A stretch of 64,000 bases of DNA from Actinomycetota bacterium (GTDB lineage Bacteria; Actinomycetota; Acidimicrobiia; Acidimicrobiales; Ilumatobacteraceae). Where the stretch lies: assembly GCA_030685215.1 (NCBI GenBank), contig JAUXQB010000278.1, positions 2,599 through 66,598 on the forward strand, written 5' to 3'. Positions 5,511 through 54,999 of the stretch are shown piece by piece. Every line of letters starts with the position of its first letter. The stretch's first letter is position 1. A model generated the notes under the pieces. It was given only the letters and a program-made list of their open reading frames with translations, ran no database searches and was not told the DNA's origin. Both the position numbers and the translations under genes were made by a program.

Positions 5511-6272
5511 ATGGACAACGCGCTCGGCGAACCTCAGACCATCCTGCTGCTCGGCGGCAACAGCGACATCGGCCTCGCCATCGTGCGCGAGCTGCTCAGC
5601 CCGAACGCGCGCACGGTGGTGCTCGCGTGCCGCGACACGGGCAAGGGCGAGCAGGCAGCTGCCGGGCTGCGCCACGACCGGCTGGCAGTGCACGTGGTGC
5701 AGTTCGACGGCGCGGCCTCGAACACGCACGAAGCGCTGGTTCGCTCGATCGGCGAGCAGTACGGCGACATCGACCTCGCGATCATCGCGTTCGCGTTGCT
5801 CGGCGATGGCGAGGCCACGTCGAAGGATGTCGCCGCTGCCACCGAGGTGGCCGCGGTCAACTTCACCGGCGTGATGTCGGCCACCATCGCGGTGGCGAAC
5901 CGCATGCGCGTGCAGGGCCACGGTGCCATCGTGATGCTCAGCAGCGTGGCCGGCGAACGAGTGCGCGCGGCCAACGCCGTCTACGGCGCCACCAAGGCCG
6001 GCATCGACGGCTTCGCGCAGGGCCTCGGCGACGAACTCGCCGGCGAGGGGGTGCACATGCTGGTCGTGCGCCCGGGTTTCGTCCACTCGGCGATGACCGC
6101 CGGGCTGAAGGCCGCCCCGTTCGCCACCACGCCGGAGGCCGTCGCGGCTGCCACCGCGAAAGGCCTGCGTTCGAAGCGGCGCACGGTGTGGGCGCCGGGC
6201 ATCCTGCGCGTCGTGTTCATGACGCTGCGTCACGTGCCCGGCCCCATCTGGCGACGCCTGCCCCTCGGCTGA
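5511..6272 (+). CDS. dprE2: decaprenylphosphoryl-2-keto-ribose reductase (SDR)
   Basis: 'PQTILLLGGNSDIGLAI', 'IVMLSSVAGERVRAANAVYGATKAG' and 'VVRPGFV' are colinear with Rv3791. ATG 5511 is 15 nt after the dprE1 stop. Confidence 0.9.
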   Translation: MDNALGEPQTILLLGGNSDIGLAIVRELLSPNARTVVLACRDTGKGEQAAAGLRHDRLAVHVVQFDGAASNTHEALVRSIGEQYGDIDLAIIAFALLGDGEATSKDVAAATEVAAVNFTGVMSATIAVANRMRVQGHGAIVMLSSVAGERVRAANAVYGATKAGIDGFAQGLGDELAGEGVHMLVVRPGFVHSAMTAGLKAAPFATTPEAVAAATAKGLRSKRRTVWAPGILRVVFMTLRHVPGPIWRRLPLG

Positions 6273-6296
6273 CCCGCAGGCTGCCACCCTCCGGCC

Positions 6297-6388
6297 GCCC
6301 ACCATCCGAGTGCCAGCCGACCATCCGAGTGGCAGCCGACCATCCGAGTGGCAGGTGCACCCCCGTCGGGCCGCTCACACTCGGATGG
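6297..6388. repeat. structured intergenic repeat, copy 1: three tandem ~19-nt units plus one inverted arm
   Basis: 'CCATCCGAGTG' occurs at 6303-6313, 6321-6331 and 6340-6350. Its reverse complement 'CACTCGGATGG' is at 6378-6388. The same architecture recurs at 41838-41930. Confidence 0.85.
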
Positions 6389-6399
6389 CCCGCAGCGAG

Positions 6400-6777
6400 T
6401 CAGTCCTCTTCGGGGAGGTGGCAGACGGCCTCGACGTTGTTGCCGTCGGGGTCGCGCACGAACGCGCCGTAGTAGTTCGGGTGGTACTCGGGCCACACCC
6501 GTGGTTCGTGCAGCACCTCGGCGCCGAGACCGACCGCGGCGTCGAAGAACGCGCGAACCGTCGCCCGGTCGGCAGCCTTGAACGCGATGTGCGACTCGCG
6601 GAAACCTTCTCCCGAGTCGAACTCGCTGATCCAGAACTCGGGCTCGGGCGGCACCCCGAAGCCGATGGCGACGCCGAAGTCCATCATCCTGACGCCGCCC
6701 AGCGGCGCGAGGACGGTCTCGTAGAACGTGGCGCTGGCGGCCATGTCGGTGCACTGGATGCCGAGGTGATCGATCAT
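6400..6777 (-). CDS. VOC/glyoxalase-family protein
   Basis: 'MIDHLGIQCTD...HIAFKA...FVRDPDGNNVEAV' is the glyoxalase/bleomycin-resistance fold. ATG at 6777 is chosen over the longer track start at 6867. Confidence 0.8.
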   Translation of the reverse strand: MIDHLGIQCTDMAASATFYETVLAPLGGVRMMDFGVAIGFGVPPEPEFWISEFDSGEGFRESHIAFKAADRATVRAFFDAAVGLGAEVLHEPRVWPEYHPNYYGAFVRDPDGNNVEAVCHLPEED

Positions 6778-41575: not shown

Positions 41576-41691
41576 GTCCGGCTGCCCGCTCCGCGTCGGG
41601 CCGAACGAACCCTGGCTCTCCTCACGTTTGTGTGGGTGACCGGCGGTTGCCGTCGGGTGCGGCGCACCATTGGCTGCATGGTTCTCTCAGC

Positions 41692-41738
41692 TCAGCGACA
41701 ACTTCTCCTGCACTTGGTGCAGGGAACGTTGTCGCTGA
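41692..41738. other. long imperfect hairpin (11 bp + 4x4 internal loop + 7 bp) in a 467-nt convergent intergenic region
   Basis: TCAGCGACAAC-TTCT-CCTGCAC-TTG-GTGCAGG-GAAC-GTTGTCGCTGA. Locally AT-richer than its surroundings. Confidence 0.6.
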
Positions 41739-41837
41739 CCGAAACGATGTGCCATGAGCTGGACTGCCCGACCCGACGCCGGGGCCGAGGCAAGCCACAG
41801 CGGTGACCGGCGCGGTTCGGGCGCCGCACGCGAGGTG

Positions 41838-41930
41838 CCATCTCCTTCCGAGTGCCAGCCGCCCATCCGAGTGCCAGCCGACCATGCGAGTGGCAGACGC
41901 ACCCCCGTCGGGACGCTCCCACTCGGATGG
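41838..41930. repeat. structured intergenic repeat, copy 2
   Basis: Units end in '...CCGAGTGCCAG' (41838-41857, degenerate), 'CCATCCGAGTG' (41863-41873) and 'CCATGCGAGTG' (41882-41892). The inverted arm 'CACTCGGATGG' is at 41920-41930. The 27-nt spacer matches copy 1 at 23 of 27 positions. Confidence 0.85.
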
Positions 41931-42042
41931 ACCGCCACCGACGCCGCACGCGCTCCACGAGTACGCGGCGAGGTCGGACGGCTGAGCGTCGCATGCCCAC
42001 GGACATGCGTTGGCGGCAACGGGGCGAACGTCGAGGTCGGCG

Positions 42043-52928: not shown

Positions 52929-53423
52929 GTGTCGAACGAACGCGAAATCATGTCCTGGGAGATCTTCGGTGAGGCGTCGCGTGCGCTCGCGCAGATGGTG
53001 GCCGACGACTACGAACCGGACATGATCCTGTCGATCGCACGTGGTGGGCTGCTCATCGGTGGCGCCCTCGGCTACGCCCTCAGCGTGAAGAACGTGTACA
53101 CGATGAACGTCGAGTTCTACACGGGTGTCGACGAGCGGTTGGAGGTGCCTCGCATCCTGCCGCCGGCACCCGACTTCGTCGACGTCAGCGATGCTCGCAT
53201 CCTCATCGCCGACGACGTGGCCGACACCGGCCACACGCTGCGCAGCGTGATGGAGTTCTGCGCCGGCAAGGTCGCCGAAGTGCGCACCGCCTGCCTGTAC
53301 GAGAAGAGCCACTCGGTCGTGAAGTGCGAGTACGTGTGGAAGTACACCGACCAGTGGATCAACTTCCCGTGGAGCGACAAGGACCCGGTCGCCAAGCGCT
53401 CCTGGTCCGTCAAGGACGCCTGA
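52929..53423 (+). CDS. purine (xanthine/hypoxanthine-guanine-type) phosphoribosyltransferase
   Basis: 'ILSIARGGLLIGGAL' and the PRPP loop 'ILIADDVADTGHTL'. 164 aa. GTG start. Confidence 0.8.
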   Translation: MSNEREIMSWEIFGEASRALAQMVADDYEPDMILSIARGGLLIGGALGYALSVKNVYTMNVEFYTGVDERLEVPRILPPAPDFVDVSDARILIADDVADTGHTLRSVMEFCAGKVAEVRTACLYEKSHSVVKCEYVWKYTDQWINFPWSDKDPVAKRSWSVKDA

Positions 53424-53433
53424 CCGCCATTGG

Positions 53434-54999
53434 TCAGCGGGTGGCGAGGATCTTCATCGCCGCGTTGCGGCCGCTGGCACCCCACACGCCGGCACCGGGG
53501 AAGGTGGCGGCACCGGTGATGTAGAGACCCTTCACCGGGGTCTCGTAGCGGGTGAGCTCTGGGTTCCTGTTGCGAAGTGCCGCGAGCGGACCGCCGGCGA
53601 AGCTGGTGGCGTGCCCGTGAGGAAGGTGGAACTCGCGCTCGTAGCGGTCTGGCGTCATCGCCCGCCACTCGACCACGCTCTCCTTGAACCCGGGTTCGGC
53701 GAGGCCCGCGAACAGGTCGAGCCAGCGTGCGGGCTCGGTGGACGAGGCCCAGCCGCCGGGCAGCGCGTAGGGCGTGTAGAGCGTCTCCAGGCTGAGGACG
53801 TGGCGGCCGCTGGGCGCGATGGTGGTGTCGCCGACGGACGGCACGTTGGCGAGGAGCCCTGGTCGTTCGAGCATGCCGCCCGACGCCATCAGTTCGTAGC
53901 CGCGGTGCATGTCGGCGATGCTGGGAGCGATGGCATACGTGGCGGTGAGGTCGCCGTCGAGGCCGGCCAGCTGCGCGGCGCGCAGGTGGGGCACAGCCGT
54001 CGTCACCGCGTCGAGCTTGGATTCGTAGCCGTCGTCGTGGGGGATCGCCTTCCAACGCTGCACCATCGCGCTCGCCTGCGGCGGTGGGTTGCGCAGCCAG
54101 GTGAGGAACGTGTCGTGCGGGTTGCACGCGGACACGACGAGGCCGGCGGTGATCTCGGTGCCGTCTGCCAGCGTGACCCCGCGCACACCGTCGCCCTCGC
54201 AGGTGATGGCGTCGACGCGTGTGCTCACCCGCACCGTGCCGCCGGCACCTTCGAACGCGGCCCGCAGCGTGCGCGGCACCTCACCGCTGCCACCCACGGG
54301 GCGACCCACCGTGCCGACGTGCCGCAGCGCGTAGGTGAGCGCGCCGAGTCCGCTGCCCTTGAACTCGGGGGAGATGCCCCACACCATCGGACCGACGAGC
54401 AGCCCCGGTGACTGCAGCGCGTCGGTGGTGAAGAACTCGCGCATCACGTCGGCCGCGCTGCGCCGGCTCCATCGCAACATCGTGCTCACGCCGCGGCCGC
54501 GCTTGGCGAGCACCTTCTTGGTGAGGCCACCGAACGACGGCGGGTCGTTGGCCGCGTCGAACACCAGCCTCACGGCCGGCATCGCGGCCGCGACGTAACG
54601 GCGGTAGCCGTCGACCTCCTGCGGGTAGTTGCGTCCGATGGAATCGAGCGTCTGCTCGAGCGAGTGGTAGCTGGCCCACGCCGCGCCGCCGCTCCATGCC
54701 ATGTTCACCTGCGCGGGCTCGACGTCGAGGTAGCGCAGGCCGTGGCGGGCGAGACCGAGCTCTTCGATGACAGGGGTGGTGCGGAACGTGATGTGGTCGC
54801 AGTTGCAGATGTTCACCATCGCGCCGGCGAACGGCTCGCTGGCGGCCGTGCCGCCGACGTCGTGGCGGGCTTCCAGCAGCAGCGTGCGCAGCCCGCCGCG
54901 GGCGAGGTACGCCGCGCACACGAGGCCGTTGTGACCCCCGCCCACCACGATGGCGTCGTAGTCGTGGGTGGTGGTCGTCGGCGAAGTCATCGCAGCCAT
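53434..54999 (-). CDS. NAD(P)/FAD-dependent oxidoreductase, phytoene-desaturase (CrtI)-like family
   Basis: 'YDAIVVGGGHNGLVCAAYLARGG' and C-terminal 'LYITGAATFPGAGV'. 521 aa. Confidence 0.8.
   Translation of the reverse strand: MAAMTSPTTTTHDYDAIVVGGGHNGLVCAAYLARGGLRTLLLEARHDVGGTAASEPFAGAMVNICNCDHITFRTTPVIEELGLARHGLRYLDVEPAQVNMAWSGGAAWASYHSLEQTLDSIGRNYPQEVDGYRRYVAAAMPAVRLVFDAANDPPSFGGLTKKVLAKRGRGVSTMLRWSRRSAADVMREFFTTDALQSPGLLVGPMVWGISPEFKGSGLGALTYALRHVGTVGRPVGGSGEVPRTLRAAFEGAGGTVRVSTRVDAITCEGDGVRGVTLADGTEITAGLVVSACNPHDTFLTWLRNPPPQASAMVQRWKAIPHDDGYESKLDAVTTAVPHLRAAQLAGLDGDLTATYAIAPSIADMHRGYELMASGGMLERPGLLANVPSVGDTTIAPSGRHVLSLETLYTPYALPGGWASSTEPARWLDLFAGLAEPGFKESVVEWRAMTPDRYEREFHLPHGHATSFAGGPLAALRNRNPELTRYETPVKGLYITGAATFPGAGVWGASGRNAAMKILATR

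What the first reader, a model, noticed from the sequence alone, without database searches (positions are those of the whole stretch)
6297..6388. Structured intergenic repeat: three tandem 19-mers that can each pair with one downstream inverted arm
The core 'CCATCCGAGTG' is repeated at 6303, 6321 and 6340, in 18-19-nt units ('CCGACCATCCGAGTGGCAG'). A 27-nt spacer follows, then the exact reverse complement 'CACTCGGATGG' at 6378-6388. One arm can therefore pair with any of three partners, giving alternative hairpins of different loop size. The element fills almost the whole gap between convergent dprE2 and a VOC gene. No protein-coding interpretation fits. It looks like a REP/MITE-like element or a register-shifting bidirectional terminator.
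Basis: seen in the sequence. Interest (0 to 1): 0.6.

Follow-up and report, generated by a model that had tools for sequence, protein, structure and literature searches.

The report
Dispersed intergenic hairpin repeat, Acidimicrobiia
The three tandem 19-mers plus inverted arm are one of about 65 copies of a hairpin-forming repeat that sits just after stop codons in this actinobacterial genome, a new lineage-specific relative of REP/TRIT-type elements and not a unique regulatory device.

Summary
It is not a one-off. The genome (an Acidimicrobiia MAG, 4.3 Mb, 69% GC) holds about 65 elements with the same plan: 1-5 tandem 19-nt units, a 27-nt apical spacer, then 1-4 inverted units. A second copy lies in this window at 41844-41930.

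All copies are intergenic. They are enriched between convergent genes and hug stop codons. Related hairpins (CCGAGTG-N27-CACTCGG) occur in 21 of 52 genomes of the genus. Across species the inner stem covaries strongly, while the base and tip keep their sequence.

Most sites that could be resolved are shared with a sister species at about 93% identity, but unit number changes freely, like a VNTR. Some sites are conserved across much deeper splits.

No RAYT/Y1 transposase, GTAG tag, target duplication, Rfam family or U-tract was found. Alternative pairing registers are thermodynamically negligible.

Best reading: an old, formerly amplified REP/TRIT-like palindromic element. It probably forms a bidirectional 3'-end RNA hairpin that stabilises or processes transcripts.

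The parts
6297..6315 (+). Left-arm unit 1 (GCCCACCATCCGAGTGCCA), core at 6302-6312. It begins 24 nt after the dprE2-like stop codon.
6316..6334 (+). Left-arm unit 2 (GCCGACCATCCGAGTGGCA), core at 6321-6331.
6335..6353 (+). Left-arm unit 3. Its core at 6340-6350 is the strand that pairs with the right arm in the dominant fold.
6351..6377 (+). 27-nt apical spacer GCAGGTGCACCCCCGTCGGGCCGCTCA ('variant A'). It holds the conserved CCC(6362-6364)/GGG(6368-6370) tip mini-stem. The spacer length is 27 nt in 64 of 65 copies.
6378..6393 (+). Single right-arm unit: inverted core CACTCGGATGG (6378-6388) plus linker CCCGC. It ends 6 nt before the VOC gene's stop codon (6400 on the - strand).
41844..41930 (+). 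Second copy of the family in the window. It has three units (cores at 41844, 41863 and 41882, two of them with one mismatch), a 27-nt spacer and an inverted core at 41920-41930. It lies between an enoyl-CoA hydratase gene (+) and an oligopeptide ABC ATPase gene (-).
53420..53437 (.). Empty site. Convergent stop codons are joined by CTGACC-AATGGC-GGTCAG (read on the - strand). The sister species carries a 5/2-unit element of the family exactly here.

Best explanation
The finding is one copy (3 left units, 1 right unit, 'variant A' spacer) of a lineage-specific family of dispersed palindromic intergenic repeats. The host is an Acidimicrobiia (probably Ilumatobacteraceae) genome. Each element is a long hairpin with three parts. 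The base has a conserved sequence (CCATCCGAGTG / CACTCGGATGG). The middle is variable but kept complementary. The tip is conserved (CACCC-N3-GGGTG-like). The arms are built of roughly 19-nt periodic units. SHOWN: about 65 copies exist and all are intergenic. They lie immediately after stop codons and are over-represented between convergent genes. The hairpin covaries across species. The cores and tip evolve more slowly than the linkers. Most sites are retained between sister species, and some across deep splits, while unit number changes by slippage. INFERRED (about 0.45 on its own): the element is transcribed at the end of the flanking mRNAs from either side. Its stable stem-loop lacks a U-tract. 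It acts as a bidirectional 3'-end structure, either as a barrier to 3'-5' exonucleases or as a substrate for RNase III-type processing, possibly with an unknown sequence-specific partner. This is what has been proposed for REP in enterobacteria and TRIT in mycobacteria. The extra tandem units are by-products of slipped-strand events, not alternative pairing partners. The family was spread by copying at some time in the past. The evidence is 35 near-identical variant-A copies, 33 of which share the derived single right arm. The enzyme responsible is unknown.
For: All 65 elements are intergenic. Their context is 19 convergent, 27 tandem and 5 divergent, against 8.6, 33.9 and 8.5 expected (p=4e-4). 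In tandem gene pairs 22 of 27 lie nearer the upstream stop (p=0.0015). Of the 75 element sides that face a stop codon, 34 lie within 20 nt of it. The same placement holds in a distant congener, G009, and in other species' flanks. Cross-species covariation of the inner stem is strong: 109 compensatory cells against 53 +/- 6, 0 of 500 shuffles reach it, and slid controls stay at or below 0.111 against 0.293. In the G000-dominated set the outer stem is 94% paired. Orthologous substitution against the sister species is 4.3% in the core, 4.4% in the tip, 11% in the inner linker and 26% in the outer linker, with 0 changes in 160 sites at right-arm positions 43-52. Site retention is 12 of 14 and 14 of 14 resolvable sites. 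Deep orthology holds at two loci. In four more species the best-matching homologue of the gene beside one of these loci also has a hairpin next to it. Unit number behaves as a VNTR. For precedent, TRIT is a conserved hairpin at mycobacterial stop codons that is now thought to be processed rather than terminating (PMC3152330, PMC13714241).
Against: In mRNA sense, G.U (10) does not exceed A.C (16) among stem mismatches, so nothing singles out RNA over DNA as the selected molecule. Orientation relative to transcription is not significantly biased (17:10, p=0.25). Actinobacterial RNA polymerase needs a U-tract for intrinsic termination (PMC3993855, abstract seen), so the hairpin alone should not terminate. 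In this genome the inner stem is degenerate (46-53% of symmetric pairs). Covariation counts do not correct for relatedness, and the outer 7 bp were fixed by the search pattern.
Confidence: 0.6

Rival explanations
1. A purely selfish non-autonomous mobile element (MITE/REPIN-like). The hairpin would be needed only for its own single-strand transposition. The location after stop codons would simply reflect where insertions are tolerated. There would be no host function.
For: 35 near-identical variant-A copies share a derived n/1 architecture. Two sites are filled in the sister species and empty here. The distribution is patchy: 21 of 52 genomes of the genus, and 3 of 61 genera in the family sample. 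The sequence is conserved at base and tip, as in sites recognised by a transposase. 10 of 65 copies sit at contig ends.
Against: No Y1/RAYT transposase was found in seven genomes searched, which include G000, its sister G214, G009 and G211 (all with the hairpin) and the three g42 genomes with the tandem form. The empty sites show no target duplication or defined terminal repeats. No IS was found between paired elements. Turnover is very low: 26 of 28 sites are shared at about 93% identity. Individual sites are retained across about 80% nucleotide identity and beyond. That pattern is unusual for neutral junk in a 92%-coding genome.
Confidence: 0.25
2. A DNA-level protein-binding site or cruciform, for example a site for gyrase, a nucleoid protein or a topological insulator. 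It would be placed where convergent transcription piles up supercoils, as proposed for BIMEs.
For: The elements are enriched at convergent junctions. No G.U over A.C excess appears in the sense strand. There is no orientation bias. The base and tip are conserved as strict sequence, not just as pairing.
Against: Compensatory changes in the middle of the stem are not needed for binding to duplex DNA. They point to intrastrand pairing. No candidate protein was found. Cruciform extrusion of a stem with a 27-nt imperfect centre is unfavourable (inference).
Confidence: 0.12
3. A register-shifting bidirectional intrinsic terminator. The single arm would choose among three partners to give hairpins of different loop size and different termination efficiency.
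For: Three identical partners exist for one arm. The element lies between convergent genes.
Against: No T-run follows the stem on either strand. Registers 1 and 2 hold 0.14% and 0.004% of the ensemble on the + strand, and 0.03% or less on the - strand. Unit number differs between sister species at more than half of orthologous sites, and the dprE2 copy itself has 4 units there. Some copies have only 1 left unit.
Confidence: 0.04

Closest known systems
TRIT (the 'tuberculosis Rho-independent terminator' motif of Mycobacterium; Gardner et al. 2011, PMC3152330)
   Same: Both occur in Actinomycetota and number tens to about 150 copies. Both are sequence-conserved palindromic hairpins without a U-tract, tightly associated with stop codons, mostly bidirectional and restricted to one lineage. 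No transposase is known for either. A dedicated binding factor was suspected for TRIT because the sequence, not only the structure, is conserved. Recent data favour processing (RNase III-like) over termination (PMC13714241).
   Different: There is no evidence of sequence relatedness. No TRIT model was available, and Rfam gave no hit. TRIT is reported only in Mycobacterium and centres at about -8 inside the coding sequence, whereas these elements start 0-30 nt after the stop. TRIT is not reported to have arms made of tandem units or VNTR behaviour.
REP / REPIN-RAYT systems and BIMEs (enterobacteria, pseudomonads)
   Same: Both are high-copy extragenic palindromes that lie between genes and preferentially at 3' ends. 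REPINs are two inverted units around a short spacer that form a hairpin. They are vertically inherited, long-lived sequence populations. Proposed roles are mRNA 3' stabilisation and gyrase binding. BIMEs are arrays of repeated units.
   Different: There is no GTAG or CGTC tag at an end of the unit. No RAYT gene was found in any carrier genome tested. The 19-nt unit is not itself a palindrome. Units are strictly head-to-tail within an arm, not alternating in orientation.
BOX elements of Streptococcus pneumoniae and MIRU of mycobacteria (recalled from knowledge, not tested here)
   Same: Both are modular intergenic repeats in which one sub-unit is tandemly repeated a variable number of times. 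BOX folds into a stable stem-loop. In both, copy number varies between strains (VNTR).
   Different: Sequences and hosts are unrelated. BOX has three different modules (A, Bn, C), whereas here the repeated unit is the stem arm itself. MIRUs are 46-100 nt and lie inside operons with translational coupling.
Correia elements (Neisseria MITEs)
   Same: Both are dispersed inverted-repeat elements that are co-transcribed with neighbours and form long hairpins. In Neisseria these hairpins are cut by RNase III and shape 3' ends (PMC13714241).
   Different: Correia elements have defined TIRs, a TA target duplication and promoter or IHF sites. None of these is seen here.

Membership tests
REP / REPIN (RAYT-associated) | High-copy extragenic imperfect palindrome | tested here: met
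   65 copies, all intergenic, outer stem 94% paired
REP / REPIN (RAYT-associated) | GTAG (or CGTC) tetranucleotide tag at one end of the palindrome (PMC3733652) | tested here: not met
   The unit and its complement contain no GTAG. CGTC occurs only in the apical loop of variant A and is absent from variant B.
REP / REPIN (RAYT-associated) | A cognate RAYT (Y1 HUH transposase, PF01797) in the genome, usually flanked by REPs | tested here: not met
   No PF01797 match at E<=0.01 in G000, G214, G009, G211, G042, G116 or G084, while the control genomes gave matches. These are MAGs of 78-99% completeness, so absence is strong but not absolute.
MITE | Target-site duplication and discrete terminal inverted repeats at the insertion boundaries | tested here: not met
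   Two filled-versus-empty comparisons show no duplication. One junction is clean (CTGACC|element|GGTCAG) and the other is blurred by indels. Only two sites were available.
MITE | A related autonomous IS with the same ends | tested here: inconclusive
   Genes between paired elements are ordinary, for example an MFS transporter, a ferredoxin, a membrane protein and a dehydrogenase. One REase-like gene is flanked by inverted elements but occurs in 47 of 52 genomes regardless of hairpins. IS elements are often missing from MAGs.
Canonical intrinsic terminator | GC-rich hairpin followed directly by a U-tract | tested here: not met
   The hairpin is present, but the scan found no terminator-like site and no T-run on either strand.
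TRIT | Match to the TRIT consensus or covariance model, restricted to Mycobacterium | not testable with these tools
   No TRIT model was at hand and Rfam gave only chance miRNA hits. The host is Acidimicrobiia, not Mycobacterium. Only the functional resemblance (a hairpin at stop codons) was tested and met.
CRISPR array | Direct repeats separated by unique spacers of similar length | tested here: not met
   Units abut with no spacers (spacing exactly 19 nt), and there are 65 dispersed loci.
Any described RNA family (Rfam 15) | A hit at or near the gathering score | tested here: not met
   The best hit scored 22 bits against a gathering score of 80 (a miRNA model). There were none at the second copy.

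The most novel reading that the evidence does not exclude
The hairpins are the recognition sites of a dedicated, still unidentified, sequence-specific protein in this Acidimicrobiia lineage. That protein either sets mRNA 3' ends, which would be a lineage-specific substitute for U-tract terminators, or mobilises the elements, which would be a RAYT-independent REPIN-like system. The conserved base and tip would be the contacts, the covarying middle a spacer helix, and the tandem arm units extra binding sites.
Probability: 0.2. Interest if true: 0.6.

Novelty: new variant of a known kind. Interest (0 to 1): 0.4.

Why it matters
High-GC actinobacteria largely lack U-tract terminators, and how their transcripts end is still debated, as the TRIT story in M. 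tuberculosis shows. This study defines a second, independent case in an uncultured class. It is a sequence-conserved, structurally constrained hairpin family parked at stop codons and between convergent genes, with no associated transposase. That gives comparative leverage on whether such elements are 3'-end devices, protein-binding sites or old mobile DNA. In practice, the family breaks short-read assemblies, since 10 of 65 copies lie at contig ends. Its variable unit number offers VNTR-type strain markers for these environmental bacteria. It is not a surprise in kind: dispersed palindromic repeats are well known.

Tried and rejected
- Rfam at a permissive E-value on both copies gave nothing beyond chance miRNA hits.
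- The promoter and terminator consensus scan found nothing.
- The RAYT/Y1 transposase search in seven genomes found nothing.
- I looked for an IS or a common gene between closely spaced elements in four species. Only ordinary genes turned up.
- A 330-aa gene flanked by two inverted elements looked like a REPtron analogue. It matches REase_MTES_1575 only weakly (E=0.011) and has no PDB relative. Its homologues occur in 47 of 52 genomes of the genus whether or not hairpins are present, so it was rejected as the cognate enzyme.
- 'CTGACC' just before the element was tested as a target or terminal motif. It is common after stops genome-wide (20% for TGACC) and only mildly enriched next to elements (36%, p=0.017). 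It was rejected as a defining feature.
- Covariation within this genome's copies shows no signal beyond shuffles, because the sequences are too alike. The signal appears only across species.
- A G.U versus A.C strand test for RNA-level selection was uninformative.
- A scan of viral contigs for the tandem motif gave 0 hits.
- The literature search for Acidimicrobiia plus 'repetitive extragenic palindromic' gave 0 papers.
- The joined-flank query to G214 reached the tool as 13,320 nt instead of the 19,800 nt built, so only 37 of 55 loci were tested.

Full report
**1. The observation**

The sequence is as described. Three head-to-tail 19-nt units occupy 6297-6353 (TRF score 103). The exact 11-mer CCATCCGAGTG lies at 6302, 6321 and 6340. 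After a 27-nt spacer its exact reverse complement lies at 6378-6388. The composite pattern CCGAGTG-N27-CACTCGG never arises in 100 shuffles of the window.

My codon-usage gene calls place the element in the 127-nt gap between a 253-aa short-chain dehydrogenase (5511-6272 +) and a glyoxalase/VOC protein (6400-6777 -). The dehydrogenase is adh_short and is plausibly DprE2, since it follows a DprE1-like ORF. The gap folds better than shuffled controls on both strands: -54.4 kcal/mol with z -2.0 on the + strand, and -77.8 kcal/mol with z -4.1 on the - strand.

**2. It is a family**

The same search showed a second copy in the window at 41844-41930. It has the same plan and again lies between convergent genes, an enoyl-CoA hydratase and an oligopeptide ABC ATPase.

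In the whole assembly (4.32 Mb, 340 contigs, 69% GC) the exact 11-mer occurs 200 times in 69 clusters. An iterated nhmmer profile of 'last unit + spacer + arm' finds 65 distinct elements. Their anatomy is:
- 1-5 left units, with modes of 3 and 4.
- A spacer of 27 nt in 64 of 65 copies.
- 1 right unit in 54 copies and 2-4 in 11.

Two spacer variants dominate. Variant A has 35 copies, with spacer ..GCACCCCCGTCGGGACGCT.., and 33 of them have a single right unit. The window's copy belongs to this variant. Variant B has 20 copies, with spacer ..CAGCGTGCACCCCGGTGGGACGCTG...

Ten elements lie within 150 nt of contig ends, so the repeat breaks the assembly.

**3. Where the elements sit**

All 65 are intergenic. 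Of the 51 with both neighbours called, 19 lie between convergent genes, 27 between co-directional genes and 5 between divergent genes. The expectation is 8.6, 33.9 and 8.5 per intergenic region (p=4e-4), or 7.1, 27.0 and 16.9 per intergenic base (p=7e-7).

In co-directional pairs, 22 of 27 elements lie nearer the upstream gene's stop than the downstream gene's start (p=0.0015). Of the 75 element sides that face a stop codon, 34 are within 20 nt of it. Orientation relative to transcription is not significantly biased (17:10, p=0.25). In a few copies the TGA of the upstream gene lies in the linker of the first unit. The TGACC context is common genome-wide and only mildly enriched next to elements.

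**4. What it is not**

- No Rfam family matches.
- There is no U-tract and no terminator-like site.
- The units abut without spacers, so this is not a CRISPR array.
- No GTAG tag is present.
- No Y1/RAYT transposase (PF01797) is found in this genome or in six relatives: its sister G214, G009, G211 and the three g42 genomes. The control genomes were positive.
- Closely spaced element pairs enclose ordinary genes.
- Viral contigs contain no copy.

**5. Register shifting**

I constrained each of the three possible core pairings and compared ensemble energies. The arm pairs with the proximal unit in 98% of the ensemble on the + strand and 88% on the - strand. The other registers reach 0.14% at most. 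The alternative hairpins exist on paper only.

**6. Taxonomy and distribution**

The exact two-unit 30-mer occurs in only 8 of about 185,000 species representatives. All eight are Acidimicrobiia MAGs, labelled Ilumatobacteraceae, 'Acidimicrobiaceae', Acidimicrobiales or Actinomycetota. One is labelled 'uncultured Bifidobacterium' (CAZWCU01). It is syntenic with this genome at about 93% identity, so the label is evidently wrong.

The hairpin signature CCGAGTG-N27-CACTCGG occurs in 21 of 52 genomes of the genus, at 1-53 copies per genome. In a 401-genome sample of the class, genomes outside the genus showed only three single, unrelated-looking matches. The tandem form does occur in a second genus of the family.

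In the distant congener G009 the elements are symmetric, with about 3 units of roughly 20 nt per arm, and they also begin just after stop codons. Periodic arms are therefore ancestral. The one-unit right arm of variant A is derived.

**7. Structure and constraint**

Within this genome the copies are too alike to show covariation. The outer stem is 94% paired but no better than shuffles.

Across species the 12 inner pairs differ in sequence but stay complementary. Examples are GGTGGTGGCAC/GTGCCACCACC, GGTACTCGCAC/GTGCGAGTACC and CCACGTGACAC/GTGTCACGTGG. Ten of the 12 pairs show double changes. There are 109 compensatory cells against 53 +/- 6 in shuffles (0 of 500 reach it). The covariation score is 0.293 against at most 0.111 for slid partners. 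Two caveats apply: the outer 7 bp were fixed by the search pattern, and relatedness is not corrected for.

Against the sister species (16 orthologous pairs), substitutions per site are 4.3% in the cores, 4.4% in the tip, 11% in the inner linkers and 26% in the outer linkers. Right-arm positions 43-52 show none in 160 sites. The base and tip are therefore conserved as sequence and the middle as structure. That pattern suggests a hairpin read by a protein.

A G.U versus A.C count in mRNA sense (10:16) gives no sign that one RNA strand is the selected molecule.

**8. Age and dynamics**

G214 in the genome collection is the same assembly as CAZWCU01, because the coordinates coincide.

- Of 14 sites ascertained in the sister species and resolvable here, 12 carry the element in both and 2 are empty here.
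- Of 14 sites ascertained here and resolvable there, all 14 are filled.

One empty site lies in the window at 53420-53437. There the sister has a 5/2-unit element inserted between CTGACC and GGTCAG, with no target duplication.

Unit number differs at more than half of the shared sites, in steps of 19 nt. The dprE2 copy itself has 4 left units in the sister.

Two sites are retained much more deeply. The first lies downstream of an FAD-dependent oxidoreductase and is retained in three species with about 80-85% identical flanks. In four more species the best-matching homologue of the neighbouring gene also has a hairpin next to it. The second lies next to a tRNA gene and is retained in two species.

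Other genus members with about 80% DprE2 identity have no element after dprE2, and they have a different downstream gene.

The picture is an old family that was amplified in bursts. Variant A's shared derived architecture argues for copying from a master. The family is now nearly static in position but unstable in unit number.

**9. Mechanism**

Shown:
- It is a dispersed palindromic repeat family.
- The hairpin is selectively maintained.
- Copies are placed at gene 3' ends, especially convergent ones.
- Copies are retained over long times.

Inferred:
- Each element is transcribed from one or both sides as the tail of the neighbouring mRNA.
- Its stem-loop protects the 3' end from exonucleases, or is cleaved by a double-strand-specific RNase, and so separates convergent transcripts.

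This is the role proposed for REP. For the mycobacterial TRIT motif the history is instructive. It numbers 147 copies at stop codons. It was first called a terminator, was then reported to overlap actual termination events only minimally, and is now suggested to be an RNase III substrate (PMC3152330; PMC13714241). Because mycobacterial RNAP needs a U-tract (PMC3993855), I do not expect the hairpin to terminate by itself.

A speculative addition is that the unpaired C-rich left units could help load Rho. This was not tested.

The rivals are a purely selfish MITE-like element, a DNA-level binding site or cruciform, and the register-shifting terminator. They are weighed in their own sections. The first is not exclusive of the best explanation.

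**10. Comparison and novelty**

The element works like REP/BIME, TRIT, BOX and Correia elements. It fails the defining tests for REP/REPIN (tag and RAYT), MITE (TSD and parent IS) and intrinsic terminators (U-tract). I found no description of such repeats in Acidimicrobiia.

I class it as a new variant of a known kind: a RAYT-less palindromic repeat with tandem periodic arms and a protein-like conservation pattern. It is of moderate interest. It is not surprising in kind, but it is a clean second actinobacterial case bearing on how transcripts end in high-GC bacteria.

**11. Limits**

- The genome is a fragmented MAG (92% complete).
- Gene calls are my own heuristic.
- The flank query to G214 reached the tool as 13,320 nt instead of the 19,800 nt built, so only 37 of 55 loci were tested.
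- With only two presence/absence sites and no outgroup, insertion cannot be told from deletion.

Noticed in passing
window 41576-41843 and 41931-42042; also G000 C144, C96, C150, C336, C132, C240, C305, C306, C36, C166: About a dozen unusually long intergenic gaps are mosaics of further repeat modules. One module contains the 47-nt hairpin TCAGCGACAAC..GTTGTCGCTGA at 41692-41738. A module of about 60 nt containing GTGAGGAGAACCAC occurs in both orientations. A third carries GGTTGCGCGCCGGCGCAACC. They are combined in different orders around the 19-mer hairpin, in the manner of BIME/NIME mosaics. No Rfam hit was found.
   Followed up: partly
G000 C204:11959-12185 joined to C201:8620-9746 (outside the window): A 330-aa gene with a weak REase_MTES_1575-like C-terminus (E=0.011) is flanked by two elements in inverted orientation, with the multi-unit arms facing outward. 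The same arrangement occurs in JADKGZ (G211). In G009, G594 and G217 the best-matching homologue has one hairpin next to it. Several homologues carry in-frame stops. The gene family is present in 47 of 52 genomes regardless of hairpins, so it is probably just a conserved neighbour.
   Followed up: partly
window 53420-53437: Convergent genes are joined by an 18-nt palindromic stop-to-stop junction (CTGACC AATGGC GGTCAG on the - strand). The sister species has a 144-nt element of the family at exactly this point.
   Followed up: yes
L033 (G211), L039 (G223) and L042 (G220), just after the dprE2 stop: In relatives that lack the element, the dprE2 stop codon is followed by other short tandem repeats that include the stop itself, for example TGAACGGCAGAGTC x3 and TGAACGGGTxGC x3. 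This suggests that slippage-prone sequence at this gene end is recurrent.
   Followed up: no
L001-L030 (CAZWCU01 records): The MAG deposited as 'uncultured Bifidobacterium sp. SRP302447_co2_675' is syntenic with this 69%-GC Acidimicrobiia genome at about 93% identity. It is the same assembly as handle G214. The taxonomic label is evidently wrong.
   Followed up: partly
G000 C325:11261-11385 and C40:1103-1189: Two elements abut tRNA genes. The C325 one is conserved next to the same tRNA in CAVPRT01, and the C40 one lies between two tRNA genes.
   Followed up: partly
window 6279-6287 and 6329-6337: GGCTGCCAC lies just after the dprE2-like stop and is exactly complementary to GTGGCAGCC at the unit 2/3 junction. 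This gives a second predicted helix that sequesters the spare units, most clearly on the - strand fold. It may be chance.
   Followed up: no
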